64,000 nucleotides of DNA, taken from IMG/VR virus record IMGVR_UViG_3300024265_000032; one strand, 5' to 3'. Of this stretch, positions 10,566 through 55,584 are shown in pieces (within the stretch, counting starts at the first letter, position 1; each line of letters opens with the position of its first letter). The translations under genes were made by a program, and so were the position numbers. The notes under the pieces were generated by a model, which ran no database searches, had not been told where the DNA came from, and saw only the letters and a program-made list of their open reading frames with translations. This stretch comes from a virus (Duplodnaviria; Heunggongvirae; Uroviricota; Caudoviricetes).

Positions 10566-11669
10566 AGTGTTATTCTAGTTATCGGTCCATCGGCGAGATG
10601 GGCTCATGGTCCGAAAACAATTCGAGATGCCGAACCGCGATCGGTCCGATAATTTCTTCCCATCGTCGCTTCATGTCAGTTATCGGTCGTACCGGCTCAC
10701 CGTTGAGCGCATCCAACATTCCGATAATCTCCCGTTTTTCGGTGTTATCCAACGTCTGATAACATTCAATGGAAACCTTGTTTTGGTCCCAAAACCAATG
10801 TAGTTTCTGGACCATATGGAAACGTCCGATACCTTCCGGCTTCCTGCTGAGCCGATAATTGCCACTTGTTATCGGAGTACGAGAGTACGTCCGAATAATC
10901 GAAATCCCATGTGGAGAATAGTGAAAAACCAACATATTATCGCTCCTTGATTGCCAGTTGTGCCGTCCGATAATTCGTATGTAAACGTCCGATAGTGATT
11001 CGGTTACGCACCGTATCATGTCCGATAAGCCGTATCGAACCGGATGTAAGTGTTACTGTAACGAAGCCATCTTGTTCCGATAACGTCCTGGCGAACAGCG
11101 TCCCATAACTCATCGCCATCTGGTCCGATAAGTTAGTCTCGTGCGCCTCTGGGCAATTATCGGTCGCCGGAATCGTGATCGTTGCACGTCCCATAATATC
11201 CTCCTTTAGAACCATAGTCCGAGAACTGTGATGATAATCGTGTGTCCGATAACCATCATCCAGAATTGTTTTTCGCGTCCCATAATACTACTCCGTAAAG
11301 CACTGGAAAGAACAGTCCGGTAATCCTCGATACTGCGAATTCCGGAAATTGTTGGACCCATAACATCCGCATTGCCACCATCCTGCGATGGCTGAATTTC
11401 GGACCAAACCCTGTCCGCAATTAGGACACTTGCCCGTAGAAACGACCGATATTGCCTCGGCTTTGCATTCGGCAAGGCGTTTTTTATCACACGTAAGGCA
11501 CGTCCCAGAATAACGGCTTCTCACGCGCCCACAACGACATTTTAATCTGAGTCCCATAATTATCCCTTTCTGTGCCACTGTCCGGTAACATCGTACAGAT
11601 CGGCTGCGGTCATCGGAAGTTTAGGTCCGAAAAAAAACTCTTTGATTGTCGTCAGCAAACGTCTCATAA

Positions 11670-11905
11670 TTATCCCCTTTTTGCTTCACTACATTATACG
11701 ATTCAAAAACCAGGAAATCAAGCCCGATAACCAACTATTACAAAATTCTTTTTTCGTCCTATAACTATGGCCATGGCTAGCCGTCAGCCCCGAAACGTCG
11801 TTATTACAGGGACCGTCTTATAAGTATTCACGTACACGACCACAGACCAAACGATTACCCGGACCGTCCGATAATGCCCTCACGGCGGTCCGATAACTAC
11901 TACTC
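11670..11905 (+). repeat. higher-order repeat copy 3 (partial)
   Basis: cgtcttataagtattcacgtacacgaccacagaccaaacgattacccggaccgtccgataatgccctcacggcggtccgataac; ~1.36 kb after copy 2. Confidence 0.65.
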
Positions 11906-13032
11906 TACTGCTGAACGTCTGATAACTAGATGAGAGAGAGAAGGTCTGATAACTAGAACTGTCGCTGCGAGGTGTTGGTCTGATAACTACTGCTGCTTGG
12001 TAGTCCGATAACCTCACGATACTGGCAAACGCAAAGGGCCGATAACTCGACCCCATTCGGCGCGTCGTCTTTGTTATAGGACGCAATGGAAAGCGTCCGA
12101 TACTGCTATGCCGTACTGGCACGTCTCATAACTTGGCCAGTTTATCGGAAGTCTAGGAGCATGGTCGTAATTATCGGTCGTTTCTACGATGTCGGCGTCG
12201 ATGTCCGATAACCATTTCAGAAAGTCTGATAACCAAATGGTTGGAATTACTGCATACTCGGACCACCACTTATCGGAACCGCAAACCTCTTCGGCGATCT
12301 TGGTCCGATATTTCACAAATGTCATTTGCATGTTATTGGCCCATCCCATAACAGTTGTTGTTATCGGAGCACACGAAGTGGCCACTGTTCGGTCCGATAA
12401 CTCCGATGCCTTCGGCGGTCCGATAAAGTTTTAGGTCACATCCGGATGTTAGTCCGATAAGAGCCAGGATCACGAGTCGTCCGATAATCTTCATTTCGAT
12501 TCTTCGCTCGTTGCGAGGTTATGTCCGATAACTCTAGCCACCGATGGCTGCTTGAATTTCGGACGTTACATGAGAGAAGAGTCCCATAACTTTAGAAACA
12601 ACGACCCAACCGATAGTGGCCGTCACTGCGAGTCCGATAAGTTTGGTGGTCATGGCTTTGCCTTTCGTTCGTTTGGTGTCTCTATCCTATCTACATGATA
12701 GCATTAGTTATACCGAATAGCAAGAGAAAAGGAAAAGAATCTTTTGGTCCGATAACTCGCCTTGCTCGTCGAGCAAGCAAGGTCTGATAACAAGCTGATA
12801 GCATAGTCTGATAACAAAAGGAAGGTACTAGTCCGATAACGGAACTCGGTTGGGGGTCGCCCGGAAATATGGATAGGTCCGATAACTCGGGTGGGTCCGA
12901 TAACCCATGGGGGTTTAGGCACAACAGGGTCAAAAAAGCCAGAGCCTACAACTTTTCGTGTACATGATATCTAACCCAGAGCCCATTCGCTTTACCCCAT
13001 ACACTTTTTTCCCAAAAAAAATCGAAGACACT

Positions 13033-38576: not shown

Positions 38577-39109
38577 TTTTACCCACATACACCGTCATCA
38601 GAGATACTCGTGAGCAGAAGGATCACGGATGGACGTTTCCTGCGCATCATCCGAATAGAAGACCGCCAAAGTGTGACGGGACAATTAGCGAAAAGTTGGA
38701 TACCGGAGACTATAGTATGGTAGGATATACCGACATATTCTCCATTGAGAGAAAGGCTGATTTTGCAGAACTTTGGCAGAATTACAGCAGCCAGAAGAGG
38801 CCAGCTTTTGAGGCAGAAATGAAACGCATGTCTCATATTAAACACAGATTCATTATTGTTGAATCGCTGTACACTCCAGATATCATGGAGTTATCTCCAC
38901 CGCAGTTTACGAAGGGTGTTCCTGGGAAATCTTTCGTCAGATGGTTGATGTACATATCTGTTAAGTATAATGTCAACATTATCCCAGCGGGGGCTTGTGG
39001 GAGAAAGATCGCACAAATGCTTTGTGAAGAAGTTGTGCGTGTGACTAAGGATCGTTGGGTTCTACAGGAACCAAAAAGCAAGGATCAGGAGGATTGTCTT
39101 GGTAACTAG
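38564..39109 (+). CDS. ERCC4 (XPF/Mus81/Hef)-type nuclease candidate
   Basis: IRDTREQ ... LDTGDY ... SIERKADFAEL = D-x-RE / GDY / ERKxxxD nuclease motifs. Confidence 0.5.
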   Translation: MSRLILPTYTVIRDTREQKDHGWTFPAHHPNRRPPKCDGTISEKLDTGDYSMVGYTDIFSIERKADFAELWQNYSSQKRPAFEAEMKRMSHIKHRFIIVESLYTPDIMELSPPQFTKGVPGKSFVRWLMYISVKYNVNIIPAGACGRKIAQMLCEEVVRVTKDRWVLQEPKSKDQEDCLGN

Positions 39110-41228
39110 TGCAAAATCGAATTCAGTCGTTAAAACAAAGGTGACCTTGGATGATTTGCTTCATGGTGATCAAGGCAAATTTGGACACATGTTCCCTTTT
39201 CGCGATCGTGTACCAGATATTGCTGATCATATCTTTACAGACCTGAAGAAGTCAAAGATACCATTGGATGAATTTGTAATCGACAAGATGTTGAATATTG
39301 ACTATATTGGTTGGACAGCAAAGGTGATGTTGAATCTCGATTTATTCCCTATTCAAATTGCAACTCTTCAGATCATGTGGAATACTCCATTCCCTATGTT
39401 GATAGCTTGTCGAGGTGGCAGTAAGACATTCATGCTTGCTGTGTATGCGCTTTTGCGAGCCGTATTTGATCCAGGTACTAAGATAGTGATTGTTGGTGCT
39501 GGTCTTAGACAGGCTCGATTGGTATTCAACGAAATAGAAGGTATTTGGAATCGATCTCCGATGCTAAGAGCAATTGTTGGTGGTGGCAAAAAGGCTGGAC
39601 CACGACAGAATGTAGACCTTTGTTATTTTCGCATTGGAGAATCTATCATCTACGCCTTGCCTATGGGTGATGGCACAAAGATTAGAGGTTTCCGTGCGAA
39701 TGTTGTTATTGCTGATGAGTTTGCTTCTATACCCGAAGATGTATTTGATATTGTTGTCCGTGGTTTTGCAGCTACCGCTAAGACCCCAGTAGAAGAAGCG
39801 AGGAAGAGGGCTTTTGACGCGAAGCTCGCCCAGCTTGATATACCATCAGACATAAGGAAGAAGCTAGTCACAGATGACGGAAAGATGCATGGTAATCAAA
39901 TTGTTTATTCAGGTACTGCATATTATGCTTTCAATCACTTCTGCAAGAAGTATGAAATGTGGCAAGAGATCATAAAGAGCCAGGGTGATCCAGAGTTAGT
40001 ATCACAGATTTTTGGTGGTGAGAATATGGTACCTGATGGTTTCAGTTATAAAGACTATGCTATCATTAGAATTCCCCACACTCATCTGCCAATAGGATTG
40101 TTGGATGATAGACAGTTAGCTCACGCCAAAGCTACGCTTCCAAGGAACATTTACTTGATGGAGTACGGTGCTGTTTTCGTGAAGGATTCCGATGGATTCT
40201 ATCCAAGAAGTCTGGTGGAGGGATGTACTGTCGGACCGAACAAACCAATTGCGACTCCAGATGGTGATGTAACATTTACACCATACATGAGAGCAGAATC
40301 AAAGCGTACATACGTAGTTGGTATTGATCCTGCTGCCGAACGAGATAACTTGGCTATAGTCGTGATAGAAGTACGTGCTAATCATTACCGAGTGATACAT
40401 TGTTGGGTTGTCAACAAAAAAGAATTCACGAACAGGAAGAAGCGCGGACTTATTACGGACGATGACTATTATGCATATTGTTGTTCTCGGATACGAGAAA
40501 TTGTGAGATTATTTAATCCTATTCGCATAGAGATGGATAGTCAGGGTGGTGGATATGCTGTTGCAGAGATGTTGCGGAACAAGAAATTGTTGGACATTAA
40601 AGATGGAGATTTCCCAATCTATGAAGTCATAGATTTTGACGAGCCTAAGTCTACGGATGGAGAAACTGACGGGCGGCATATTTTGCATCTGGTACAACAG
40701 AGTACGGAATTCAACCAGAATGCCAACATAGCGCTTCACAAAAGTCTTGAAACTCGCTCCCTTTTGTTTCCAGCTTTTGACAGCGTAAAAATGTATGCAG
40801 CAATTGAAGCGGAAAAATCGATGGGTGTTGTGTTTGACACATACGAGGATTGTGTGTTTAATATAGAGGAACTGAAAAACGAACTTTGCACCATCCAAAT
40901 GACCGAAACTGCTACTGGCAAGGAAAGATTTGATACACCACAAGTAATTCAGCACGGTGTTGTCGAAGGTCGTTTACGAAAGGGTAGATTGAAAAAAGAC
41001 AGGTACACTGCACTTCTTCTGGCTCACAAATACATTTATGACGAAAGTATCTCCGAAGGTGAAGAGATAGATTACAACGATGTGGCTGGAAACATCGAAA
41101 AACGTTCCAAGACGCCAGATAAAGACGAGCCTATGTACCGGGGTCCAGGTCTTGGTCGAATGCATAATGCACAAGGGGCTCGTGGCGGGGGTCTTTTCAA
41201 AGCCGTGAAGCGTGGTAAGCGTCTCTAG
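39099..41228 (+). CDS. terL: terminase large subunit
   Basis: Walker A-like ACRGGSKTFM, Walker B VVIADEFASI, C-terminal RNaseH-like nuclease VVGIDPAAERDNLAIVVIE; followed by portal. Confidence 0.85.
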   Translation: MVTSAKSNSVVKTKVTLDDLLHGDQGKFGHMFPFRDRVPDIADHIFTDLKKSKIPLDEFVIDKMLNIDYIGWTAKVMLNLDLFPIQIATLQIMWNTPFPMLIACRGGSKTFMLAVYALLRAVFDPGTKIVIVGAGLRQARLVFNEIEGIWNRSPMLRAIVGGGKKAGPRQNVDLCYFRIGESIIYALPMGDGTKIRGFRANVVIADEFASIPEDVFDIVVRGFAATAKTPVEEARKRAFDAKLAQLDIPSDIRKKLVTDDGKMHGNQIVYSGTAYYAFNHFCKKYEMWQEIIKSQGDPELVSQIFGGENMVPDGFSYKDYAIIRIPHTHLPIGLLDDRQLAHAKATLPRNIYLMEYGAVFVKDSDGFYPRSLVEGCTVGPNKPIATPDGDVTFTPYMRAESKRTYVVGIDPAAERDNLAIVVIEVRANHYRVIHCWVVNKKEFTNRKKRGLITDDDYYAYCCSRIREIVRLFNPIRIEMDSQGGGYAVAEMLRNKKLLDIKDGDFPIYEVIDFDEPKSTDGETDGRHILHLVQQSTEFNQNANIALHKSLETRSLLFPAFDSVKMYAAIEAEKSMGVVFDTYEDCVFNIEELKNELCTIQMTETATGKERFDTPQVIQHGVVEGRLRKGRLKKDRYTALLLAHKYIYDESISEGEEIDYNDVAGNIEKRSKTPDKDEPMYRGPGLGRMHNAQGARGGGLFKAVKRGKRL

Positions 41229-41296: not shown

Positions 41297-43435
41297 ATGG
41301 CAAAGAAAAGTCCTGTTAAAAAAACCAAAACTCCTGTTCAGGATCATCTCTACACACAGGGTGTTGGCGGAATAAGGGATTACATCCTTCCAGATACATG
41401 CCATTTGAACAAAGGTATTCCACAGAGAGCAATAGCGGCAGATGTAAATAAGCGATCAGGACACAATAGGCACAATTACGATACACAACGTCCAAACGAT
41501 AAGTTGCCGGTTAAGCACAATGAAATTATTCTCGCATGTCAGTCTGTCTATCGTAAGGTGGGTATGGTTCGTAATATCATAGACCTGATGACAGATTTTG
41601 CAGCAGAAGGACTAGAATTACAGCATACGACCAAAAGTCAAGAAAGATTTTATCGAGAGTGGGCCAGGAAAGTGAATCTAAATGGTAGGGCTCACGACTA
41701 CATGAAGCTTTTGATGAGAGATGCGAATGTCATTGTCCGTCGACAAAATGCACTCATCTCCAGACCGGTTATCAAGGAGATGTCGAAGGCTGACGCTTCT
41801 GTTAATCCTATTGGTTTGGTAGACGAAACATTTGTACCAGAAAAGCCACAAAAAATCACCAAACTCAACAAGAAAACAAATCGTAGAGAGATTCCATGGA
41901 AATACACTTTTCTTTCTCCTGTCGTCATAGAGAAGATTGGTGGAGAGCTTGGTCGGTTTTTTGGTTCTGATACTCTCGGTATGCGGATACCAACGGCATT
42001 GCGGAATTCGATAAGGGCTCCAAAAACCAAGGCGGAAAAAGCGTATGTCAGTGAACTTCCGCCAGAAGTTGTTCGCGCAGCGAAGAAAACCGGCGGTCTT
42101 GTCAAGCTGGATATGGATAAGATTCATGTCGATTATTACAAGAAAGACGACTGGGAAGAATGGGGTACTCCATTTCTGTACGGCGTTCTTGAAGACGTGA
42201 TGTTCAAGGAAAAAATGCGTCTTGCTGATATGGCAGCACTCGACGGAGTGATTAATGTCATTCGTTTGTGGAAATTGGGCAATTCAGATCAGCAAATTCT
42301 TCCTACGCCAGCAGCGGTTGATAAGCTTATCGATATTCTTCAGCACAATGTCGGCGGCGGGGTTATGGACCTTGTGTGGGACGACATGATTGATCTTCAT
42401 GTTGAATACCCTCCTACCGACAAGATTCTTGGACCAGACAAATATATCAGTGTCAATAGTGACATTGTTCGCGGCATAGGTATTCCAGACTCTCTTATTG
42501 GAGGCGCTGACCTTGGAACACGTAATGCTCAGTCCGCATTTGTGCAACTAAAAACACTGGTAGAAAGGCTTGAATATGTCCGAAGTCGGGCTATAAGATG
42601 GATGCAAAACGAACTTCGTCTGGTGGCCAACGCCATGGGATTCAAAAAGATTCCAGCAATAAGTTTCGGTGTTATGTCATTGCGAGACGAAGCAGCAGAA
42701 AAGCAGTTGATGATTCAACTACTGGATCGCGGTATAATTTCGTCAGAGAAGGTTTCTGAAGCGTTTGGAACGAACTTTATGATAGAACTTGAAAGACTGA
42801 AGTTGGAGCAAGCATTCAGAGAAGAAAACCCAGGTGTCTTGGAACGATCCGATCCATACAACCGCCCATTTACGATGCTAGAAAAACAAAACGAACTAGC
42901 CATCAAGCTTGAAAAGGTTAAGATCAATGGTAAGAATGTTGATGGTGGAGATAATGGTGGTGGAGATAATCCCAGTGGAGATCAGCCGAGAAATGATGGC
43001 AATAATTCACCAGGAAGACCGCCGTCAACAAAAGACACTGCCCCAAGAGACGAACGAACGCCAAAGACACAATCTGTTCTAATGGTTGTAGCTGATAGTT
43101 TTCTGGATCAAATCGGAGAGTTGGTAGATGGTCCGTATATGAAACAATGGAAGATAAGGGGCAGACGATCTCTGACGAAAGCAAGGAAAGATGAGTTGGA
43201 GCGAGTTAAGCGTGGTATCTTGTCCGTCTTGCGTCCCGGAGATACGGTAACTAAGAAGCTAATAGCCGAAAGACTTGAGATGAGTGTTGCCACACGAAAC
43301 AGTTCTCGTCAAATGGAAAGTAATTTTGGTGATCTTGTAGAGTATTTTACATCATCTACGAAAAAGACACCGAATACTAAAGAGCGCAGATCATTAACTA
43401 TTATGGCATGGGCTGCTGTAGTGCCTATCAACTAA
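41297..43435 (+). CDS. portal protein (candidate)
   Basis: 712 aa immediately after terL; Gly/Asn/Asp-rich C-terminal region. Confidence 0.6.
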   Translation: MAKKSPVKKTKTPVQDHLYTQGVGGIRDYILPDTCHLNKGIPQRAIAADVNKRSGHNRHNYDTQRPNDKLPVKHNEIILACQSVYRKVGMVRNIIDLMTDFAAEGLELQHTTKSQERFYREWARKVNLNGRAHDYMKLLMRDANVIVRRQNALISRPVIKEMSKADASVNPIGLVDETFVPEKPQKITKLNKKTNRREIPWKYTFLSPVVIEKIGGELGRFFGSDTLGMRIPTALRNSIRAPKTKAEKAYVSELPPEVVRAAKKTGGLVKLDMDKIHVDYYKKDDWEEWGTPFLYGVLEDVMFKEKMRLADMAALDGVINVIRLWKLGNSDQQILPTPAAVDKLIDILQHNVGGGVMDLVWDDMIDLHVEYPPTDKILGPDKYISVNSDIVRGIGIPDSLIGGADLGTRNAQSAFVQLKTLVERLEYVRSRAIRWMQNELRLVANAMGFKKIPAISFGVMSLRDEAAEKQLMIQLLDRGIISSEKVSEAFGTNFMIELERLKLEQAFREENPGVLERSDPYNRPFTMLEKQNELAIKLEKVKINGKNVDGGDNGGGDNPSGDQPRNDGNNSPGRPPSTKDTAPRDERTPKTQSVLMVVADSFLDQIGELVDGPYMKQWKIRGRRSLTKARKDELERVKRGILSVLRPGDTVTKKLIAERLEMSVATRNSSRQMESNFGDLVEYFTSSTKKTPNTKERRSLTIMAWAAVVPIN

Positions 43436-45397: not shown

Positions 45398-45880
45398 ATG
45401 GCTTTGAAACCAGATCGTGATTATAACGAGACAACTGACATTACTAACTTTTGGACTACAGTTGCTGCTGAAAAGGGTGGCATAGCTAGCGTAGTTACAC
45501 AAGGCTCCGGTGCTGCAATTGGTGTTAATCTTGCAGACGAAGCTAACGTGGTCGGCTATGTTGCGGCTATTACTGCTGGTATGGTACCCAAGGGTATTTT
45601 GCTTCAGACAGTAGCAGCAGCTATGAGTGCCACAAGAGACTTCCCGAATTTCGAGAACGGGGAAATTCGGCCAAGTGACAAGTGTACTCTAGTGACAAAG
45701 GGTTGGGTAGTTACAGATATGATTCCAGCAGGTATTACACCGACAGCCGGTGCTCCTGCCTATGTGGCTGCAAGTGGTAAGATAAGTTCCACGTCAGGAG
45801 CTTTGACGAGGCGAATTGGTCGGTTCGAGACGACTAAGGACGCTAATGGTTTTTGTAGAGTCTCGATTGACATCACATAA
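45398..45880 (+). CDS. head structural/decoration protein candidate (160 aa)
   Basis: GGGGGTGAATAGGG-ATG; Ala/Gly/Thr-rich. Confidence 0.5.
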   Translation: MALKPDRDYNETTDITNFWTTVAAEKGGIASVVTQGSGAAIGVNLADEANVVGYVAAITAGMVPKGILLQTVAAAMSATRDFPNFENGEIRPSDKCTLVTKGWVVTDMIPAGITPTAGAPAYVAASGKISSTSGALTRRIGRFETTKDANGFCRVSIDIT

Positions 45881-45894: not shown

Positions 45895-46920
45895 ATGAAG
45901 CGTAATGTAATTAAACCAACAACTGAGCAGGTTGAACTTCTGCGTCGGACTGGTTCCCAAAACAAGGCCGAAGCATTGGAAGCGATGCACTCTTTGGCTC
46001 AGGCTCTACAAGTTCCACTACGATCGGCGTTGCTTAATGGAGACATCCTGGGCGGCATCTTCGCACCTGAAGTCCTAGACCCAAGTGCGACTGCTGAATA
46101 TCCGCTGGATTTCTATCAGACAGCACAGGAGAATGACTATGTGGCATACATGATTCCAAGTGAAGGCGCGCTACCACAGAGAACCATCACTGGTGATGCT
46201 GTGACAGTTAGCACGTATGACGTTGGTAATGCCATCGACTGGCCGCTGAAGTATGCGACTTCCGCACGCTGGAACATCATAGCTCGCGCTATGGAGGTTC
46301 TTGAGGCCGGTTTCGTGAAGAAGATGAACACGGATGGATGGCGTGTCATCATAGCTGCTGGTACAGGTCGTACTGACTACAGCGGTGGGGCTCCACTGGT
46401 CTATGACAGTGCTGCAACTGCTGGTCAGTTCACGAAGCGTCTTGTTTCTCTGATGAAAACCACGATGACTCGTCTTGCTGGTGGAAACACCTCCAGTATT
46501 GGTCGCGGTCGTCTGACTGACCTTTTCATCAGTCCAGAAGCACTTGAGGACATTCGTGAATGGGACAAAGACGAAGTGGATGATTTCACTCGTCGGGAAA
46601 TTTTCACTGCTACAGATGAGGGTGGCCCAATGGCTCGCATCTATGGCGTGAATTTGCATCCGTTGGATGAACTTGGTGTTGGCCAGGAATTCCAGACGTA
46701 CTTTGCTACGCTCGGCGTTAGCATGGGTACTAGCGATGAGGAAATCGTCGTTGGTCTTGACCTGTCGCATGGTGACTCGTTTGTCATGCCAGTCAAGCGC
46801 GAATTGTCGATTTTCGAGGATGATATGCTGCACAGGCGTCAGAAAGCTGGCTTCTATGGGTGGCAGGAACACGGTTTCGCGGCTCTTGATGGACGAAGAG
46901 TTCTCATCGGCTCGTTCTAA
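45895..46920 (+). CDS. major capsid protein (HK97-fold candidate)
   Basis: 341 aa; GGGGGTGAAGAAGA-ATG; position after scaffold. Confidence 0.6.
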   Translation: MKRNVIKPTTEQVELLRRTGSQNKAEALEAMHSLAQALQVPLRSALLNGDILGGIFAPEVLDPSATAEYPLDFYQTAQENDYVAYMIPSEGALPQRTITGDAVTVSTYDVGNAIDWPLKYATSARWNIIARAMEVLEAGFVKKMNTDGWRVIIAAGTGRTDYSGGAPLVYDSAATAGQFTKRLVSLMKTTMTRLAGGNTSSIGRGRLTDLFISPEALEDIREWDKDEVDDFTRREIFTATDEGGPMARIYGVNLHPLDELGVGQEFQTYFATLGVSMGTSDEEIVVGLDLSHGDSFVMPVKRELSIFEDDMLHRRQKAGFYGWQEHGFAALDGRRVLIGSF

Positions 46921-47051: not shown

Positions 47052-47444
47052 ATGTCACTAAACAATACAGAAGTGAAGAAAGAGTATTCATTTGGCAAAA
47101 GCTGTGCTGAAGTGGCAGCATTAGATGGTTGTAGCGAAACATCTATGTACAACCGAATGAGAGATTTGGGGGTCACCATGAGAAGTCGTTCAGAAGCGAA
47201 TCAACTTTTCCCAAATTCTGTTTTCATACTGCTTTACAATCTTGGTCTTTCCACTTCTCAAATCGGGAGACTTTTGGGTGTAAATTCATCAACCGTGACT
47301 AAAAGACTACATCTTCTGAAGTTCCCTTTACGATCACGCCGTGTAGCTAGCCGCATACGATATACGGAAGAAGAGTTTAACCAATACTTTATGGTACCGG
47401 ATATTCTTGATCAACTCTCGAAATTGGTTTGTGCAACAGTCTAA
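47052..47444 (+). CDS. double-HTH DNA-binding protein (region-4-like HTH x2); candidate late regulator
   Basis: CAEVAALDGCSETSMYNRMRDLGV and LSTSQIGRLLGVNSSTVTKRLHLL. Confidence 0.5.
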   Translation: MSLNNTEVKKEYSFGKSCAEVAALDGCSETSMYNRMRDLGVTMRSRSEANQLFPNSVFILLYNLGLSTSQIGRLLGVNSSTVTKRLHLLKFPLRSRRVASRIRYTEEEFNQYFMVPDILDQLSKLVCATV

Positions 47445-47460: not shown

Positions 47461-47811
47461 ATGGCCTTAATAGGACAAACAATCGCTGAATTTGATTTTT
47501 TCCCAGATGCTCCACCAGCTATTGTTGGTGAACTAGTAACCGGTCAGACGGTAAATATAGAACTTTGGGAGGGGTCGGGTGTCGTCGCTATCGCTTCAAG
47601 TGGTTGTGCGGAGATTAATGCTACTGGTAGATATAGCTGGTCAGTCGGCAGTGGCATAACAACAATGTCTGCGAGTCGTCAGCAATTTCATTGGAGAATG
47701 TCTGATGGAACTAATGAGGACGAGGGTGACTTTGTTCTTATCTCTCACGAAAACCGTGATGGTGGGATGCCATCGGTGAATGATCCTGATTCATATATTG
47801 TACAAAACTAA
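47461..47811 (+). CDS. stand-alone copy of the tail-fibre C-terminal module (VNIELWEG...SSGC..I..TGR..WS)
   Basis: GGAGG RBS; aligns to C-terminus of 47821..50133 and to 50162..50533. Confidence 0.55.
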   Translation: MALIGQTIAEFDFFPDAPPAIVGELVTGQTVNIELWEGSGVVAIASSGCAEINATGRYSWSVGSGITTMSASRQQFHWRMSDGTNEDEGDFVLISHENRDGGMPSVNDPDSYIVQN

Positions 47812-47820
47812 GGAGTGTAA

Positions 47821-50133
47821 ATGTCGGCATCTGGAATATTAAATTCTGATTCTGTCATTTTCTATCATCCATTGGATGATGCGATAGAATTTACACAGAA
47901 TATTATATGGAGCGGCGATGCGTTCTTCGTACCTGGAAAGGTTGGTAACGCCGCATCTCCTATTGTGTCCAGCGACATTACGTTAGGTCCAACACAATTG
48001 GTAGAATCAGGATCAGCCATACAACAATCTAGTCCCATATCCATAACATCGCTGACAGACGAAAAAGCCGTCATAGCCTATTCGAGCAATGCTCCTAGTG
48101 GTGACAACACAGGCAAGGTGCGAGTCGGCGTTTCTAGCGGATTATTCATGATATGGGGTGATCCATATATATATAATCCAGAGAATGATGCTGCCGCCAA
48201 TCGCCAAGGAGATGTGTCAGCACTTGATGATACTCGTTTTATAATTGGGTATACACACAACACCGGCACGCTAGGAAGTTATGCCAGGATAGGCTCTGTT
48301 AGTGGTACGACAGTAACTTTCGGAAGTGAATTTCAATTCGATTCTTCTGTAATTTTCGGGGAATTGAGAACAGTAGCGATAAACGCATCGGGTGCCGTGT
48401 TATTCTACAGAAATCCGACTACTGGCAAACCAATGGGATTAGTCTGCACTATTTCTGGAACTAACATATCATTTGGAACACCATCTCAGTATAGCACAGT
48501 GACACAACCAGTTGGTATATTTAGCGACAGGACTATGGACATAGCTACACTAACTTCTGGTTCTGTTATTGCCATCACTGCTCAGGAAAGACCTGGGAAC
48601 GGTGAGGATATGTCCAAGGTCGGCATCGTAGGTGGTCCTAGCGGCACCGATCTTTTCTGGGGTCCAGGTACTGATCCAGGACCGACAGACCTACCACAAA
48701 TCGACATTGCCGTTATAAATTCTAGCACAGTAATTATGTGTAAAACGGGCCTCGGCTCAGGAAACGCATTGGTTGGGAATATTACAGATGGATCGGGCAT
48801 TTCGTGGGGTACAGAAACACAATATGCGCCTGGCAACATACGGGAGGGAATTGGAACTTCTCTTGGGTCTGGCAACATACTTATCTATTATAGAGATACG
48901 GCATCCAATGCAGGAACAGTTCTCGGCACAGTAATGGGAACAACACTAGCGTTTGGAACTCCAACGTCTTTGCCGAATTTGAAAACACATCTTTTAGATT
49001 TGTCCAGATTCAACACCGCTGGATTTATACTTGTCGGTGCAGATCAAGATGTGTTGGCCGACGACAAGGGAACGGTTTTTTCTTGGAGAGGTGTTCTTGA
49101 TGCATCTGCATCTCTTTCTGGACTCATAGGTGATTCTTCTTATCCATCAATAAGCGGAGCAACACGCATATCGATTGCGTCGTGGAATAACAATCTTACA
49201 CATGATTTTTCTACAGTGAATATAGAAAGAGGCTATCACATATCTATCGATAAGAATAGTATATCTCTAGGAAGTGGCACGGCCCAATGGAATAGTTCTG
49301 GCACATTGTCATTTTTGGAAGATATGAATGACGATAACAGTCATTTTTTGGTTTTGGATTTTGAAAATGTTAGTGGTGGCGATTGGACCTTGCGTACATC
49401 AGTAGATGGACAACCTTTTGTGGGCCATGGAATACAACAGATTGGTTCTCAAAGTGTATTGACAACAGATACTGATCCAAGATTAATCATAGAGAGCGGT
49501 CTTGGTCCATCACAATGGTTGGACGAGCTAGTTTTGTGGGCTGGCGATAAGGATGTGTTGCCTAAGTTTAGGAATTTTCAACTATCGACAATGTACGAGA
49601 TGGGTCAATCTGGATTAGCGATGAATCAGTATCCAGAGTTTTTGGCGTCTGGGTCTATGGATTTATTTCTGTTTGGTCCGCAGCCAGCCACCGGTTCAGC
49701 AGATTTGTTTATGTACGGACCACAGCTTATGAGTGGTTCAATCAATCTATTTTTGCATAGTGTACAATCTGGTGTTGGTATACCAACTAGGATAATCAAT
49801 AAATTAACTAAGGGGCCAGACTACGATCCACAGATTGTAAGTACTTTTGATGCAGTGGCAACGTCTGTTAATATAGAGTTGTGGGACATAACTGACGGCC
49901 AGAATACATCCATTATTCTTATCAGTAGTGGGTGTTATCAAATAGGGTCTACCGATACTTGGGGATGGTCTACTGAGCATCTAAATATTGCCGGTAGTAA
50001 AAATGAATATCAATACTACTATAGGATGGTATCCAACGTAGCAGAATCCCAGTATGGAGAATTTTTCATTACGGTGCCGGAAAAGGCACTATGGTTATTT
50101 CCAGATGATTTAGATACCTTTATACTTTCATAA
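47821..50133 (+). CDS. tail fibre / receptor-binding protein 1 (770 aa)
   Basis: Ser/Gly/Thr/Asn-rich; shares N-terminus MSASGILNS and central domain (SHFLVLDFENVSGG...WLDELVLWAGDKD) with 51123..54074; carries C-terminal copy of shared module. Confidence 0.6.
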   Translation: MSASGILNSDSVIFYHPLDDAIEFTQNIIWSGDAFFVPGKVGNAASPIVSSDITLGPTQLVESGSAIQQSSPISITSLTDEKAVIAYSSNAPSGDNTGKVRVGVSSGLFMIWGDPYIYNPENDAAANRQGDVSALDDTRFIIGYTHNTGTLGSYARIGSVSGTTVTFGSEFQFDSSVIFGELRTVAINASGAVLFYRNPTTGKPMGLVCTISGTNISFGTPSQYSTVTQPVGIFSDRTMDIATLTSGSVIAITAQERPGNGEDMSKVGIVGGPSGTDLFWGPGTDPGPTDLPQIDIAVINSSTVIMCKTGLGSGNALVGNITDGSGISWGTETQYAPGNIREGIGTSLGSGNILIYYRDTASNAGTVLGTVMGTTLAFGTPTSLPNLKTHLLDLSRFNTAGFILVGADQDVLADDKGTVFSWRGVLDASASLSGLIGDSSYPSISGATRISIASWNNNLTHDFSTVNIERGYHISIDKNSISLGSGTAQWNSSGTLSFLEDMNDDNSHFLVLDFENVSGGDWTLRTSVDGQPFVGHGIQQIGSQSVLTTDTDPRLIIESGLGPSQWLDELVLWAGDKDVLPKFRNFQLSTMYEMGQSGLAMNQYPEFLASGSMDLFLFGPQPATGSADLFMYGPQLMSGSINLFLHSVQSGVGIPTRIINKLTKGPDYDPQIVSTFDAVATSVNIELWDITDGQNTSIILISSGCYQIGSTDTWGWSTEHLNIAGSKNEYQYYYRMVSNVAESQYGEFFITVPEKALWLFPDDLDTFILS

Positions 50134-50161
50134 TTGTTTCAAAGAAGGGTCTGGTGTTGCA

Positions 50162-50533
50162 GTGCCAATAAGTTCAGGAACATTAGCGAGACCGTTTGAT
50201 TGGTTGTTGAAAACATCCGACCATAATCCGCAAACTATAGGAACATTCGATTTAGTTGCTAGTAGCGTAAACATAGAAGTTTGGGATGTTACGGATGGAC
50301 AAAATTCAGCCGTATCTTTAGTCAGCAGCGGATGCTACGCCATAGGCAACACCGGGAGATGGGGATGGTCAACAATGAATTTGCCAGCTAGTCAAGGACA
50401 TGCAAAACATTACTATTATGTTATGACTTCTAACTTAATGGAAACGTTCGGCGGACAATTTATCCTAGATTTGCCAGAACGTGCGAAGTGGATTCATCCT
50501 ACTAATCAGGATGATTATATTTTAGGGATATAA
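50162..50533 (+). CDS. second stand-alone copy of fibre C-terminal module
   Basis: VNIEVWDVTDGQNSAVSLVSSGCYAIGNTGRWGWSTMNL vs VNIELWDITDGQNTSIILISSGCYQIGSTDTWGWSTEHL. Confidence 0.55.
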   Translation: MPISSGTLARPFDWLLKTSDHNPQTIGTFDLVASSVNIEVWDVTDGQNSAVSLVSSGCYAIGNTGRWGWSTMNLPASQGHAKHYYYVMTSNLMETFGGQFILDLPERAKWIHPTNQDDYILGI

Positions 50534-50568
50534 GCCACACGAACTGACAAACTATTTAGGGGGCAGCA

Positions 50569-51099
50569 ATGGCTTGGGACACAGATTTAGTTTTGATGGT
50601 TAGAGTTTTGGTCAGCGATATCGCTACGCCTCAGACATACACTGACGAATATCTACAAAGAGTGTTGGTAACGGCTGGTATCATGGCCGATGCAGATATT
50701 GCGTTTCCCAATACTTACGTATACGACATGAGTCTCATCACAATTTCTCCTGATCCTGTCACTCTCAACGATTCGGCGTTCATGTCTTTGGTTCCGCTGA
50801 AGGCTGCTTGCATTCTTACTATTGGTGAATTCAAATCAGCATTAGGCCAGGGAATTAAGGTGCGAGACGGAGACAGTGCCATTGACACAAGTGTCAGCTT
50901 TAAGGGGTACAGAGATATTCTAGAACTCGGACCATGTAAGGCATACGAGAAACTACGATGGGCTCTTTTGGCGTCTGGCGGCGCTGGCAAGGCTGTTTTG
51001 GGACCGTATCGATCACCTGGAGGAAGTGCGGAAAGTACTATCTCATGGTATTATGATCAATTTTTGACAACAAACAGTGGTCGCAGAGATAGATCGTAG
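50569..51099 (+). CDS. tail-associated hypothetical protein (176 aa)
   Basis: GGGGGCAGCA-ATG. Confidence 0.5.
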   Translation: MAWDTDLVLMVRVLVSDIATPQTYTDEYLQRVLVTAGIMADADIAFPNTYVYDMSLITISPDPVTLNDSAFMSLVPLKAACILTIGEFKSALGQGIKVRDGDSAIDTSVSFKGYRDILELGPCKAYEKLRWALLASGGAGKAVLGPYRSPGGSAESTISWYYDQFLTTNSGRRDRS

Positions 51100-51122
51100 A
51101 GTAGAATGAAAGGTATGATGTT

Positions 51123-54074
51123 GTGTCAGCTTCTGGAATATTAAATTCGGGTGCCGTAGTATTCTACCACCCGCTAGATAATTCTACAGAACACACTCTT
51201 TCGCAAGATTGGGTTGGCTCTGCTGAATATGCAACAGGTGAAGTTGGCAATGGTCTATTCGCTAATATAGGAACTACTGTAACCGTTGATAATCCTGTGG
51301 ACATATTGAGTGAAGGCTTTATACCAGCCGGTTTAGCGAATTGTGTTAGGCTTACTGATACAAAGTTCGCTATAGCATATTCAGATACCGTAGATGTAGT
51401 CGGTGTCAGAATTGTCAATATAAGCGGGACAACTCCGACATACGGTACAGAATATCTTTTCACTGCTCCAGATATTCTTAACACACAGATACACGCATTT
51501 TCACCATCATCAGTTATACTTGTACATAGGAGTGGCGATACTCCAACCAATCGTGGATTTATACGACAACTGGACATAGATGGATCGGATATTATTACTT
51601 CCGGAGCCTCGTTCATAATAGGCGAATTTATTGGTAGTTCAATATCTGCTTGTATTATAGATGATACTCGCGCTTTGGTAACATTTGGAGGTACTACAGA
51701 GGGCTACGTCACCATATTTGAATTGTCGGGTGGTGTTTGGACATCTGGCAACATTGAAATAATATCAGATATGCGAACTAGTGATACATGCTTCCTTCTA
51801 AATTCTTCTGGATGTATATTCAACTATAACGATCTTGATACCGATGGTCAGGTTCGAGTAATTCAGTTACCAGTTAGTGGTGTCGATATTACAGCAGTTG
51901 GTGCTTCTTACGAATTTTCTCCCACCTATGGTCTAGGTGGAGCCGCTGGTAGCCACACAAATGGAGGAATGTGCAAACTTACAGATAGTAAGTTTATGAT
52001 TTTCTTCAAAGAGGGCAACAGAGGTAGATTGATGGCCGCTGATGTTGTCGGTAACAACATCACTCTCGGAACTGACGAGGACATTATTTCCTGGTATGGA
52101 CATGGCCAAATCACTAGACTCACCGATGACAAATGTATGGTAATCTACAAAAATCAAGATGCCTTTCCTGTGGTGAGTAATGTTAGAGTTTGTAGTGTTG
52201 CTGGACTAACTGTAACAGTAGGTACTAAGTATATTTTCAGTGACGAAGACCCAGGCGTAACTGATTCGGTTGGTCCTATCAATACAATAGCTGGTATCAA
52301 TCCAGCTAGTGCTTTTGTATTCTACACAGAACATACGGCATCGGAGAGACATGTTAAACTCTTAACCGTCGATACTTCTGATGCGTCACTAATGGGTTCG
52401 GGATATCCGAGCATGAGTGGGTATACTCGTGTAGCTGCCTGTATGTGGGCCAGAAATCTAACCGCTCCAGTTTCGACCGTAAACGTTGAACGTGGCTATA
52501 GTATTCAAATGACATCTGGTTCGATTGTTCTAGGAGGGGCTGCGACTTGGGACGATGGTGACATAACTACTTTGATGGATTCATTGAACGATGATAGTGC
52601 TCATTTTCTTGTTTTGGACTTTGAAAATACAGGTTCAAACTGGAATCTAAAGACATCCGTAGATGGTGTAACCTGGGTGGATCAGGGTAATCAAAATACT
52701 GGATCGTTATCGCCAGTACTGACGGACACATCTGGGGAAGTTTCTATCACTAATCCCGAAGCCGGTCAATGGATAGACGAAGCTGTCTTGTGGGGTGGAG
52801 ACAAGGCTACTCTAGATATATTCACAGACAACGAACTTTTGAGTTTGTTTACGCTAGCGGGTTCTGGTCTTACAATGGCAGAATATACAGCAGTGGAAGG
52901 ACCAGCGCCAGGAGCAACTGAAGTCAACGATAATTTCGATATGTACATATTGAATATGGGGGAAGTGGCGACATCCGGAGACCTTTATGTCGCTGGTCTT
53001 GTTCAGGTCAATGATTCTATTGATTTGTTCATAGAAAGTGTCTCAATAGTAACACTACAAACATCTGGTGATCTGTACATACAAGGTAGTGACGCAACAA
53101 CAGCATCTATAAACTTGTTTATCGCAGGACAAGATAGTATAAGTACATCTGGAGACCTGTTCATAAGAGGTGCAAATATTGTATTACTTTCTGGTGATCT
53201 ATTCATAGAAGGTGTCGACAACGTGTCGGCATCTGGTGACTTATTTTTACAGGGCTTAGATATCATACAAATATCCGGTGACTTATTTGCGAAAGGACAA
53301 GATTTAGTAGCAGCTTCGGGTAATCTATATGTAGCGGGACCAATTTTTACATTCGGTCAAGTCGACTTGTTTATATCGGGAACACCAGTAGTAGTGGATT
53401 CGGAAAGTGGTTCTGTAACCTTATATATCAACGGAATAGATACAACCCAGGCATCGGTAGATTTATTCATATGGAACGATGGTTTACTCTTAGCAAGTGG
53501 AAATTTTGATTTATTCATCAATGGAGAAGTGGCAATATCCGCTGTTGTTTGTCCACCACTGGACGCTACGGCATCTATACAGATAAAGCCTGCGCTGATT
53601 GCTATTTATCAATCTAGAATCGACGCCTTGATCAATCAACTTGGCAAAAATGTTCGTCTTATTTTCGATCCCGTTCTTACTCCTTGTCCGAACTGTTTGT
53701 ATGATGTATTGAGAAAGCGATCCAATGGGATATATCGCACAGGAGGACCAAGGCCGTTCAAGAGAGGTAGAAAATGTCCATACTGCAAAGGCAGAGGATT
53801 GAATGAAACATCGGTCGAGAAGTGTATAAAGTGTTTGTTGAAATGGAATCCTAAAGATGCCGAGAATTACGGCATCTCTATTGGTCAGAAAAAGGGCATC
53901 GTTCGTATGAAAACATTCTTGACTTCAGCAGATGATATGATGCAAGCAAAAACTGCCATAGCGAATTATGATATCAATGCTCAGATGAAGTTGAATGTAA
54001 AATTGATTCGTGGACCAATACCCGTAGGGCTCAGAGAAGACAGATATTGCATTAGTTTTTGGGAGTTACTCTAA
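51123..54074 (+). CDS. tail fibre / receptor-binding protein 2 (983 aa) with ~14 tandem SGDLFI-type repeats and C-terminal 6-Cys Zn cluster
   Basis: paralog of 47821..50133 at N-terminus and centre; repeats TSGDLYVAG/SGDLFIRG/SGDLFIEG/SGDLFLQG... at ~52970-53540; CPNCLYDV..CPYCKGRG..CIKCL. Confidence 0.6.
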   Translation: MSASGILNSGAVVFYHPLDNSTEHTLSQDWVGSAEYATGEVGNGLFANIGTTVTVDNPVDILSEGFIPAGLANCVRLTDTKFAIAYSDTVDVVGVRIVNISGTTPTYGTEYLFTAPDILNTQIHAFSPSSVILVHRSGDTPTNRGFIRQLDIDGSDIITSGASFIIGEFIGSSISACIIDDTRALVTFGGTTEGYVTIFELSGGVWTSGNIEIISDMRTSDTCFLLNSSGCIFNYNDLDTDGQVRVIQLPVSGVDITAVGASYEFSPTYGLGGAAGSHTNGGMCKLTDSKFMIFFKEGNRGRLMAADVVGNNITLGTDEDIISWYGHGQITRLTDDKCMVIYKNQDAFPVVSNVRVCSVAGLTVTVGTKYIFSDEDPGVTDSVGPINTIAGINPASAFVFYTEHTASERHVKLLTVDTSDASLMGSGYPSMSGYTRVAACMWARNLTAPVSTVNVERGYSIQMTSGSIVLGGAATWDDGDITTLMDSLNDDSAHFLVLDFENTGSNWNLKTSVDGVTWVDQGNQNTGSLSPVLTDTSGEVSITNPEAGQWIDEAVLWGGDKATLDIFTDNELLSLFTLAGSGLTMAEYTAVEGPAPGATEVNDNFDMYILNMGEVATSGDLYVAGLVQVNDSIDLFIESVSIVTLQTSGDLYIQGSDATTASINLFIAGQDSISTSGDLFIRGANIVLLSGDLFIEGVDNVSASGDLFLQGLDIIQISGDLFAKGQDLVAASGNLYVAGPIFTFGQVDLFISGTPVVVDSESGSVTLYINGIDTTQASVDLFIWNDGLLLASGNFDLFINGEVAISAVVCPPLDATASIQIKPALIAIYQSRIDALINQLGKNVRLIFDPVLTPCPNCLYDVLRKRSNGIYRTGGPRPFKRGRKCPYCKGRGLNETSVEKCIKCLLKWNPKDAENYGISIGQKKGIVRMKTFLTSADDMMQAKTAIANYDINAQMKLNVKLIRGPIPVGLREDRYCISFWELL

Positions 54075-54786: not shown

Positions 54787-55584
54787 ATGGCACATTCGCA
54801 CATACTAGGCGTTAGACATGATATAAGAAATTCTCTTTTTGAGATCAAACAGGGCCATGTTCCTGGATATTCTTTGGTACACAAATTTGGTCGTAGTGAC
54901 AATGTAGCCAATAATATTTGGTCAATAATTTCTTTGTCACCTGCTTCTGGTGCATTTCCATCGTCGGGAAGTCGAGTTAACATTAGGGCTGGAGGCAATG
55001 CCGAAGATAGTTCTAGTGGTTTAGGAGCACGTTCAATTACCATCATTGGTATCAATACAGATTTGGAAGAAGTAAGTGAAGTCCTTTTTCCTGATGGTGC
55101 AAACGCAAGCGCAATGTCAACAAATACTTTCTGGAGATTGTCAAGAGCTTATCTGGAAACTGTCGGACAATATTCAAATGGCAATATTGGTGACATTGTT
55201 TTGGAGAATTCTGAGGAAATGCTTACAATAACAGCAGGGGAAGGGCAAACACAACACGCAGCATATTCTATTCCTGCTGGCAAAACAGGATTTTTGATCA
55301 CTGTGCATCTGACAATAGATGCTGGAAAAGCTGCTGATGTAAGATTGATGACTAGAGAAAATTTTACAAATGTTACGGCACCTTTTTCTCCAGTGCGGTT
55401 GAGACATTATTGGGATGGAGTCCTTGGGGAAGCAAGTTATAGACCAATGGCTCCAGGCATAGAATTTCCTGCTCTTACTGATATATGGATAGAAGCCAGA
55501 GGTGGTGGACAGAGCACTGAAGTATCTGCGGATTTTGAACTTTTACTGATAGACGATGATCCAGGACATATTCAAACTCTGTAA
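54787..55584 (+). CDS. structural protein candidate (265 aa)
   Basis: ORF track. Confidence 0.5.
   Translation: MAHSHILGVRHDIRNSLFEIKQGHVPGYSLVHKFGRSDNVANNIWSIISLSPASGAFPSSGSRVNIRAGGNAEDSSSGLGARSITIIGINTDLEEVSEVLFPDGANASAMSTNTFWRLSRAYLETVGQYSNGNIGDIVLENSEEMLTITAGEGQTQHAAYSIPAGKTGFLITVHLTIDAGKAADVRLMTRENFTNVTAPFSPVRLRHYWDGVLGEASYRPMAPGIEFPALTDIWIEARGGGQSTEVSADFELLLIDDDPGHIQTL

What the first reader, a model, noticed from the sequence alone, without database searches (positions are those of the whole stretch)
47461..54074. Duplicated tail-fibre giants with a mobile C-terminal module present in three genetic contexts
The proteins at 47821..50133 (770 aa) and 51123..54074 (983 aa) share an N-terminal anchor (MSASGILNS..VIFYHPLD) and a central domain (HFLVLDFEN...TSVDG...W(L/I)DE(L/A)VLW.GDK) but differ elsewhere. 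That pattern is typical of receptor-binding protein duplication and divergence. A ~110-aa module (VNIE(L/V)W(D/E)..G......SSGC..I..TGR..WS) occurs fused to the C-terminus of fibre 1 and as two separate small genes (47461..47811 and 50162..50533). This looks like a cassette for tip or chaperone exchange that controls host range.
Basis: seen in the sequence. Interest (0 to 1): 0.6.

Follow-up and report, generated by a model that had tools for sequence, protein, structure and literature searches.

The report
Phage neck/head fibres with swappable anchors
Two giant phage surface proteins are real paralogues, but the shared small module at their C-terminal end is most likely the piece that fixes them to the virus particle, in one case the neck 'stopper' protein itself, not a tail-fibre tip or chaperone.

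Summary
G1 (47821-50133) and G2 (51123-54074) are paralogues (BLASTP E 7e-48). The ~110-aa module is at the G1 C-terminus (49% identical to s2, E 9e-37) and stands alone as s1 and s2.

The interpretation needs reversing. The genes lie between the major capsid gene and the head-tail connector genes of an uncultured phage lineage (contigs up to 181 kb), not in a tail module. About 35 related loci share a fixed backbone: s1, w176, a 196-aa zinc-ribbon protein (Zn196), w237, w312 and w373. Hypervariable giants of 400-3054 aa sit between these genes. Every complete giant that matched a module ends in one of two modules: an s2-type Ig-like module or Zn196.

G2 is a chimera joined inside a 14-residue repeat array. 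s2 is the cargo-less anchor left behind.

Best reading: these are neck or head fibres held by conserved C-terminal anchors, displaying variable repeat-rich, probably adhesive domains. Virion location and function are inferred. This is a new variant of a known kind.

The parts
47461..47811 (+). s1: standalone 116-aa module of the s1 clade. It occurs once per complete close-relative locus and was never found fused.
   Evidence: 160 orthologues were found (120 listed), nearly all 107-124 aa and 68-100% identical. s1 forms a separate clade in the module tree. The beta-sandwich fold is inferred from the model of its paralogue s2, built on a joint s1/s2 alignment.
47821..50133 (+). G1: 770-aa class-A giant. 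Cargo: N-terminal motif, six or seven repeat units of ~49-62 aa (aa ~70-425), and a central jelly-roll-like domain (aa 425-610).
   Evidence: Orthologues are 43-46% identical over the full length (P0001-P0006). No Pfam, PHROG or PDB sequence hit.
49645..49785 (+). Three copies of the 14-residue repeat (xxxS/GxDLFxxGxxx) linking the G1 cargo to its anchor.
   Evidence: motif positions 614, 628 and 642, spacing 14.
49771..50133 (+). G1 C-terminal alpha-type module (aa 651-770), the proposed virion anchor.
   Evidence: 49% identical to s2. It lies in the alpha subclade with the modules encoded between s1 and w176 in relatives. It ends 1 residue from the C-terminus.
50162..50533 (+). s2: standalone 123-aa beta-type Ig-like module, a cargo-less anchor.
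50569..51099 (+). w176: conserved 176-aa backbone gene between the anchors and Zn196. Candidate head-tail adaptor, by position only.
   Evidence: Present in all related loci that span this position, at 43-82% identity, including L037, which lacks giants. No PDB or Pfam match.
51123..54074 (+). G2: 983-aa class-B giant, one uninterrupted ORF that fuses cargo, repeat shaft and stopper domain.
   Evidence: The ORF is identical in L033 and differs by one residue in L034. It is a chimera: aa 1-713 are 70% identical to the L003 class-A giant, and aa 664-983 are 56% identical to the C-terminus of the L003 class-B giant.
52965..53549 (+). About 12 copies of the 14-residue SGDLFIxG repeat (aa ~615-809). 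The last copy is the conserved N-terminus of the Zn196 family.
   Evidence: There is no DNA-level tandem repeat. The crossover between class-A and class-B similarity lies here.
53487..54074 (+). Zn196 domain (G2 aa 789-983): stopper/head-closure-like beta-barrel with CxxC zinc-ribbon motifs. It is the only copy in the window.

Best explanation
G1 and G2 are virion-surface display fibres of an uncultured large phage, held on the particle by their C-terminal domains.

G2 is covalently fused to the phage's only copy of the stopper (head-closure) neck protein. Each stopper subunit in the ring below the portal and adaptor would therefore carry a ~790-aa arm. The arm consists of a propeller-like repeat domain, a jelly-roll-like domain and a shaft of about twelve 14-residue repeats. 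It would project from the neck as a whisker or neck fibre.

G1 is held by an Ig-like module that belongs to a three-paralogue set: s1, alpha and beta. Close relatives keep all three paralogues whether or not cargo is attached. s1 and s2 are cargo-less members that fill their structural positions, either in a collar around the adaptor or on the capsid.

The N-terminal cargo is the variable, probably adhesive (glycan- or surface-binding) part. It is exchanged between genomes, and between the two kinds of anchor, by recombination in the repeat linkers.

Shown: the homologies, the strictly C-terminal position and near-universal retention of the anchors, the stopper-like predicted fold, the chimeric make-up of G2, and the fusion in three assemblies. 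Inferred: virion location, outward orientation, copy number and adhesive function.
For: - Gene position: TerL, portal, scaffold, cement, MCP, HTH, s1, G1, s2, w176, G2/Zn196, w237, w265, w312, w373.
- In about 35 related loci, every complete giant that matched a module ends within 0-14 residues of its C-terminus in either an s2-type module or Zn196. Each complete locus of the close relatives has one s1, at least one s2-type module and at least one Zn196.
- About 144 of the top 150 hits among 402 clusters in the exhaustive profile search carry the module at the C-terminus of proteins 107-2888 aa long.
- Zn196 is a standalone protein of about 168-198 aa in most relatives. Its AF2 model matches stopper, Neck 2 and head-closure proteins.
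- At least seven locus types, including the window, have Zn196 only in fused form.
- The same cargo (G2 aa 1-713) is mounted on a beta module in L001 and L003 but on Zn196 in the window. That only makes sense if the C-terminus is the anchor.
- Cargo-less or short alpha and beta modules recur in L004, L005, L007, L016, L018, L020 and L026.
- The module tree separates s1, alpha and beta by gene position.
- Cargo in relatives includes RCC1 and YWTD propellers and a bona fide Laminin_G_3 domain.
- Published neck fibres (A-1(L) gp82N on the adaptor, PMC10966104; the lactococcal NPS collar, PMC10747895) show that beta-sandwich anchor domains and carbohydrate-binding distal ends are an established design.
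Against: - There is no experimental or structural evidence that any of these proteins is in the virion.
- The Ig-like module gives only generic fold matches, so its docking site is unknown.
- The N-terminal 30 residues are well conserved between many giants, which in classical fibres marks the anchor.
- An all-fused stopper ring carrying 6-12 arms of 790 aa might be sterically hard to assemble.
- Internal initiation or proteolytic release of a free stopper cannot be excluded.
Confidence: 0.6

Rival explanations
1. G1 and G2 are tail fibres or receptor-binding proteins attached by the conserved N-terminus. The ~110-aa module is an exchangeable receptor-binding tip or an assembly chaperone that sets host range.
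For: The N-terminal ~30 aa are 60-73% identical between many giants. Small genes flanking fibre genes are often chaperones (general knowledge). Weak fold matches of the module include a Microbacterium phage 'probable tail fiber protein' and BppU-type domains.
Against: The genes lie in the head/connector block, and no tail or baseplate gene was identified in the window. The C-terminal modules are the conserved part and the rest varies. s1 is 68-87% conserved whichever giants are present. The same body is joined to a stopper-fold domain in G2. The N-terminal motif occurs internally in some giants. No tail-fibre or chaperone family matches.
Confidence: 0.08
2. A capsid-fibre variant. The Ig-like modules (s1, alpha, beta) bind the capsid surface as the C-terminal domain of T4 Hoc does, so G1 is a head fibre rather than a neck fibre. 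Only G2 would sit at the neck.
Against: In many relatives s1 lies directly next to w176, and s2-type genes flank w176. Three distinct paralogues kept together suggest a defined hetero-oligomer rather than one capsid site. BppU/NPS-type ring anchors give equally weak fold matches (PMC10747895).
Confidence: 0.25
3. The G2-Zn196 fusion is not the functional product. A free stopper is made by internal initiation or proteolysis, or the fusion is a decaying gene, and the upstream giant acts independently.
For: Most relatives encode a free Zn196. An in-frame GTG at 53529 lies just after a GGAG motif.
Against: The ORF is intact and identical, or differs by one residue, in three assemblies. At least seven locus types have fused copies only, and fused copies are as conserved as free ones. 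The GGAG is only 2 nt from the GTG. The fused copies examined carry no conserved internal start at the junction.
Confidence: 0.07

Closest known systems
Stopper / head-closure neck proteins (HK97 gp7, SPP1 gp16 class; phage Chi Neck 2, 8vhx_F; Pam3 connector, 8hdr)
   Different: No sequence-family match. Zn196 has three CxxC zinc-ribbon motifs and an N-terminal helix plus a 14-residue repeat unit. It occurs here and in many relatives as the C-terminal domain of proteins of 417-1869 aa, sometimes as the only copy. I found no published stopper carrying such an extension (limited search).
Neck fibres and whiskers: T4 fibritin, cyanophage A-1(L) gp82/81/80, phiKZ whisker ring, Goslar collar filaments
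   Same: Long, flexible, non-essential-looking appendages at the head-tail junction. Distal carbohydrate-binding-type domains. In A-1(L), a beta-sandwich anchor domain docks on the adaptor (PMC10966104; bioRxiv 10.64898/2026.04.21.720040).
   Different: The published fibres are separate proteins bound non-covalently, with N-terminal anchors where this is known. Here the anchor is C-terminal, and for G2 it is the neck ring subunit itself.
Lactococcal neck passage structure (NPS) and BppU/FibU ring anchors
   Different: The anchor is N-terminal in NPS and BppU. There is no sequence similarity. Here three paralogous anchors exist, with cargo-less versions.
T4 Hoc (with Soc as cement)
   Same: Ig-like domains, a C-terminal virion-binding domain with the exposed parts N-terminal to it, an adhesive role, and co-occurrence with a cement protein (general knowledge; the window's cement protein is at 45398-45880).
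   Different: No sequence relationship was tested or found. The cargo here consists of propeller-like and jelly-roll-like domains of up to 3000 aa. The binding site is unknown.

Membership tests
Tail fibre / receptor-binding protein with an N-terminal anchor | Encoded in the tail or baseplate module | tested here: not met
   The genes lie between MCP and the connector genes. The remaining window genes with a family match are replication or nucleotide-metabolism genes.
Tail fibre / receptor-binding protein with an N-terminal anchor | Conserved N-terminal attachment domain and a variable C-terminal tip | tested here: not met
   The C-terminal modules are invariant and the bodies vary. The N-terminal motif occurs internally in some giants and is absent from others.
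Tail fibre / receptor-binding protein with an N-terminal anchor | Sequence match to a known tail-fibre family | tested here: not met
   No Pfam, PHROG, PDB-sequence or INPHARED tblastn hit.
Tail-fibre chaperone or intramolecular chaperone domain | Similarity to Tfa, gp38 or Peptidase_S74-type domains | tested here: not met
   No family hit. The module is a plain 8-strand Ig-like sandwich.
Tail-fibre chaperone or intramolecular chaperone domain | Co-varies with the fibre tip it serves | tested here: not met
   s1 is 68-87% identical across about 120 listed orthologues, whichever giants are present, and it also occurs directly next to w176 with no adjacent giant.
Stopper / head-closure protein (HK97 gp7, SPP1 gp16 class) | Characteristic beta-barrel fold | tested here: met
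Stopper / head-closure protein (HK97 gp7, SPP1 gp16 class) | Core gene located between the adaptor and the tail genes | tested here: met
   Zn196 is present in all related loci that span the position, always before w237-w312-w373, including L037, which lacks giants. The roles of w176 and w237-w373 are themselves inferred from position only.
Stopper / head-closure protein (HK97 gp7, SPP1 gp16 class) | Sequence membership of a curated connector family | tested here: not met
   No Pfam hit beyond non-significant zinc-ribbon and DnaJ_CXXCXGXG matches (E>=0.02).
Stopper / head-closure protein (HK97 gp7, SPP1 gp16 class) | Forms a hexameric or dodecameric ring under the adaptor in the virion | not testable with these tools
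   No multimer prediction was available and no isolate exists.
Neck fibres / whiskers (fibritin, A-1(L) gp82, NPS) | Separate fibre protein docked non-covalently on a neck protein through an N-terminal domain | tested here: not met
   The anchors here are C-terminal. The G2 anchor is covalently the neck protein. Compare PMC10966104 and PMC10747895.
Neck fibres / whiskers (fibritin, A-1(L) gp82, NPS) | Located at the head-tail junction of the particle | not testable with these tools
   Inferred for G2 from the stopper fold. Unresolved for G1.
Concanavalin A-like / Laminin_G_3 domain (central domain of G1 and G2) | Profile similarity to a bona fide Laminin_G_3 domain | tested here: inconclusive
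   No Pfam hit for 19 members. hhalign against the Laminin_G_3 domain of the L013 giant aligns only the last-strand motif (Prob 0.7%). The resemblance is by motif only (W-x-D-E-x-x-x-W).

The most novel reading that the evidence does not exclude
This phage lineage has a built-in display platform. Two kinds of structural subunit, the stopper ring protein and a three-paralogue Ig-like set, each exist in blank and cargo-bearing versions. A neck ring could therefore be built from mixed paralogues, or entirely from subunits fused to arms of up to about 1,670 aa. Cargo is moved between anchors by recombination in a 14-residue repeat shaft. As far as my limited search shows, it would be the first case of a head-closure protein serving as the covalent base of neck fibres, and of heteromeric stopper rings.
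Probability: 0.45. Interest if true: 0.72.

Novelty: new variant of a known kind. Interest (0 to 1): 0.6.

Why it matters
Appendages at the phage neck and head are known, but how they are attached and how they diversify is understood for only a few model phages. In all of those the fibre is a separate protein.

Here the attachment appears to be genetic. The stopper, a ring protein thought to be constrained by its role in sealing the DNA-filled head and docking the tail, tolerates N-terminal extensions of hundreds to about 1,670 residues. In some genomes it exists only in that form. If confirmed, three things follow:
- Neck ring proteins can be built from mixed paralogues.
- The stopper N-terminus becomes a natural site for engineered phage display of very large cargo.
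- A whole class of giant 'hypothetical' proteins in metagenomic phages could be read by a simple rule: look at the last 110-200 residues.

The result also corrects a tempting mis-annotation. These proteins should not be used as host-range determinants of the tail-fibre type.

Tried and rejected
- Pfam, PHROGs, PDB-sequence and INPHARED searches with s1, G1, s2, w176 and G2 found nothing.
- Profile-versus-PDB sequence searches for the central domain, w176, w237, w312 and w373 found nothing usable. The roles of w176 and w237-w373 therefore rest on position only.
- Scanning individual members of the Zn196 and module alignments against Pfam and PHROGs gave only non-significant hits.
- The LamG hypothesis for the central domain was tested by Pfam and hhalign and could not be confirmed.
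- No DNA-level tandem repeat underlies the 14-residue protein repeat.
- I considered programmed readthrough or frameshifting between giants and a downstream short Zn196. In L038 and L039 the upstream giants already carry a complete fused Zn196, and the 168-aa gene is an independent short paralogue, so I rejected the idea.
- I considered an assembly artefact as the cause of the G2-Zn196 fusion and rejected it.
- I looked for an internal start for a free stopper and found no well-placed start.
- Host assignment through GTDB genomes gave three inconsistent MAG labels: Heimdallarchaeota, Phycisphaerales and Balneolaceae.
- The C-terminus of the 3054-aa giant of L001 could not be retrieved, because it runs off the locus.
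Full report
**1.

G1 (47821-50133, 770 aa) and G2 (51123-54074, 983 aa) share their first ~30 residues and a central domain. BLASTP gives E 7e-48 overall, and 35% identity over G1 aa 425-725.

The ~110-aa module is present three times:
- At the G1 C-terminus (aa 653-769), 49% identical to s2 over 117 residues (E 9e-37).
- As s2 (50162-50533).
- More distantly as s1 (47461-47811), 27-29% identical to the other two (E 1e-9 and 3e-9).

The similarity is not compositional. A profile of the module retrieves 402 clusters among 1.84 billion representative proteins.

**2. Context**

The window carries a phage head module on the + strand:
- Large terminase, 39099-41228, and portal, 41297-43435.
- A scaffold-like protein.
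- A cement/decoration protein, 45398-45880 (Pfam Phage_cement on the identical product).
- The major capsid protein by position, 45895-46920.
- A small HTH protein.
- Then s1, G1, s2, w176 (50569-51099), G2, and four conserved ORFs (w237, w265, w312, w373).

The other window genes that matched a family are replication and nucleotide-metabolism genes. No tail, baseplate or tail-fibre family matched anywhere in the window. None of s1, G1, s2, w176 or G2 matches Pfam, PHROGs, PDB sequences or cultured-phage genomes. Relatives exist only in metagenomes, on contigs up to 181 kb.

**3. The last 195 residues of G2 are a different, highly conserved protein**

A search with G2 aa 781-983 returned 155 homologues at 55-84% identity (120 listed). 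Nearly all are standalone proteins of about 168-198 aa. I call this family Zn196. It has CPNC, CPYCKGRG and CIKC motifs. Its N-terminus is itself one unit of a 14-residue repeat, as in MIVTSGNFDLFING....

- R4C, Bas63, Milano Neck 2, GTA, Bxb1 and XM1.

Split-barrel flavin reductases share the barrel and score only slightly lower. The assignment therefore rests on fold plus gene position, not on fold alone.

The window has no separate Zn196 gene. The next gene is w237. No well-placed in-frame start codon lies at the junction.

The 983-aa ORF is identical in an ENA assembly (L033, 99.88% nucleotide identity) and differs by one residue in a JGI assembly (L034, 99.98%). The fusion is therefore real.

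**4. Comparative anatomy**

I mapped the modules onto about 35 related loci: L001-L032 from protein look-ups and IMG/VR, and L035-L037 from GTDB genomes. The backbone is constant: scaffold, cement, MCP, HTH, s1, w176, Zn196, w237, w312, w373. Hypervariable giants of about 400-3054 aa lie between these genes.

Every complete giant that matched a module ends, within 0-14 residues of its C-terminus, in one of two ways:
- Class A ends in an s2-type module.
- Class B ends in a run of 14-residue repeats followed by Zn196.

One 1061-aa protein in L015 carries the repeats but neither module.

Each complete locus of the close relatives contains exactly one s1 (never fused), at least one s2-type module and at least one Zn196.

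Zn196 occurs in three arrangements:
- Free only.
- Free plus one or two fused copies (for example L003, L013-L015, L017-L019, L023, L026, L038, L039).
- Fused only: the window, L004, L006, L010, L022, L024, L028-30 and L035.

In a neighbour-joining tree without support values, fused and free copies are interleaved. This suggests repeated fusion and fission, or gene conversion.

The module tree has a deep s1 clade and an s2-type clade with two subclades that follow gene position:
- Alpha lies between s1 and w176. It includes the G1 module and, in L004, a cargo-less 114-aa gene.
- Beta lies after w176. It includes the modules of the G2-orthologous giants of L001 and L003, and the window's free s2.

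Short or cargo-less s2-type proteins of 80-194 aa recur in other loci.

A distant relative, L037 (MCP 55% identical), keeps w176, a 169-aa Zn196, w237, w312 and w373. It has no s1, no s2-type module and no giants. Only 84 nt separate its MCP gene from w176. The module-plus-giant system is therefore an accessory block, while w176 and Zn196 are core.

**5. G2 is a chimera, and s2 is what was left behind**

- G2 aa 1-713 are 70% identical to the 1134-aa class-A giant of L003. That giant continues into a YWTD propeller and a beta module.
- G2 aa 664-983 are 56% identical to the C-terminus of the 1552-aa class-B giant of L003.
- The overlap lies inside the 14-residue repeat array (xxxSGDLFIxGxDx). 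There are about 12 copies in G2 (aa ~615-809) and 3 in G1 (aa 609-655).
- The window's s2 is 66-67% identical to the beta modules of exactly those orthologous giants.

So the same cargo sits on a beta anchor in relatives and on the stopper in the window, and the beta anchor persists as a free gene. This is hard to reconcile with a C-terminal 'tip'. It is what one expects if the C-terminal modules are structural anchors that must be kept, and the N-terminal bodies are movable cargo. The repeat arrays are the likely recombination-tolerant joints; that is inference.

**6. The cargo**

G1 aa ~70-425 contains six, possibly seven, repeat units of 49-62 residues, with the pattern hydrophobic strand ... 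G ... SGxxIxFG. G2 has a comparable region. This looks propeller-like, but that is inference. Homologues of this region occur in many ~850-aa marine proteins.

The central domain ends in a motif, WxDExxxW followed by an FTDxEL-like stretch in most members, that resembles the last strand of LamG domains. Pfam and hhalign did not confirm membership.

Giants in relatives carry bona fide RCC1 and LDL-receptor class B (YWTD) propellers and a Laminin_G_3 domain. These are interaction or lectin-type domains.

The 'N-terminal anchor' motif also occurs inside some giants and is missing from others. It is therefore part of the cargo cassette.

**7. The Ig-like module**

Its docking site is unresolved. 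I slightly prefer a collar at the adaptor, for three reasons: s1 and the s2-type genes flank w176, three paralogues are retained together, and there are published precedents in A-1(L) gp82N and the NPS ring (PMC10966104, PMC10747895). A Hoc-like capsid site remains plausible.

**8. Mechanism proposed**

After DNA packaging, the adaptor (probably w176) and the stopper close the portal. In this phage every stopper subunit is the C-terminal domain of G2. Arms of ~790 aa would therefore radiate from the neck.

G1 docks through its alpha module. s1 and s2 fill the positions of their paralogue class without cargo. The arms probably mediate reversible adhesion to host or environmental surfaces, as proposed for Hoc, NPS and whiskers.

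Shown:
- The homologies.
- C-terminal placement of the modules.
- Retention of the anchors.
- The predicted stopper fold.
- Chimerism of G2.
- The fusion in three assemblies.

Inferred:
- Presence in the virion.
- Outward orientation.
- Stoichiometry.
- Function.

**9. Comparison with what is known, and novelty**

Neck and head appendages are well known: T4 fibritin and Hoc, A-1(L) neck fibres, lactococcal NPS, the phiKZ whisker ring and Goslar collar filaments (PMC10966104, PMC10747895, bioRxiv 10.64898/2026.04.21.720040). In the cases I could read, the fibre is a separate protein. Where the anchor is described, it is N-terminal.

The differences here are:
- The anchor is C-terminal.
- One fibre is covalently fused to the stopper itself.
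- Blank and cargo-bearing paralogues coexist.
- Cargo is exchanged between two unrelated anchors.

My literature searches found no description of such a fusion. The search was limited. I rate this a new variant of a known kind.

**10. Verdict**

The tail-fibre identity, the N-terminal anchor and the tip/chaperone role do not. Interest is 0.6.

Noticed in passing
window 60432-60782 (+); 63090-63335 (+); 6830-6900 (-): ARAGORN predicts a phage-encoded tmRNA (tag peptide GESQFRMAA). It also predicts a cluster of tRNA-Phe, tRNA-Ala and tRNA-Asp just downstream of the structural block, and a second tRNA-Asp on the minus strand. A tmRNA argues for a bacterial host.
   Followed up: no
L025:11975-13693 and L031:9551-11269: In these relatives the Zn196 (stopper) gene is split by an insertion of ~360 aa with a weak Hint_2 match (E 1.7e-4, below the Pfam cut-off). 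This is probably an intein inside a neck protein gene.
   Followed up: partly
L003:12119-12967; L039:4390-5343; L038:13046-13849: HNH-type (Pfam HNH) and LAGLIDADG-type (faint hit) ORFs are inserted between the conserved structural genes (around w265, w312 and w373) in different relatives. This suggests active homing-endonuclease traffic in the block.
   Followed up: no
L035 (CP070695.1, 41756-62328): A record titled 'Candidatus Heimdallarchaeota archaeon bin6 chromosome' (4.94 Mb) carries a full copy of this phage block, including one class-A and two class-B giants. Phycisphaerales and Balneolaceae MAG contigs carry relatives too. The host is unresolved. The archaeal label is probably a binning or scaffolding artefact.
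   Followed up: partly
L037 (JBBAEC010000032.1): This distant relative has MCP, w176, a 169-aa Zn196, w237, w312 and w373, but no s1, no s2-type module and no giants. The whole module-plus-giant system is absent as a block.
   Followed up: partly
window 54787-55584 (+): w265 (phrog_8198, unknown function) is present in only a minority of relatives (L003, L025/L031, L035, probably L038). It is an accessory gene inside the otherwise fixed w237-w312 block.
   Followed up: no
window 47052-47444 (+): A small sigma-70 region 4 / HTH protein is conserved between the capsid gene and s1. Several relatives add a 415-422-aa protein with a related HTH just upstream (L007, L008, L018, L025). It may be a late-gene regulator or part of a mobile element.
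   Followed up: no
P0014-P0079: The propeller-like repeat region of G1 has homologues in many ~850-aa proteins from marine metagenomes (Tara among them), often matching at several places along the protein and lacking both anchors. It appears to be a widespread uncharacterised domain.
   Followed up: no
window 1-12000: This region has strongly negative GC skew, opposite to the rest of the window, and only short ORFs (at most 165 aa). I did not examine it.
   Followed up: no
L038:10001-10507; L039:3184-3690: A short form of free Zn196 (168 aa) lacks the N-terminal repeat unit and the CPxLD segment. It sits immediately after a class-B giant that carries a complete fused Zn196. Free stoppers therefore come in at least two lengths.
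   Followed up: partly
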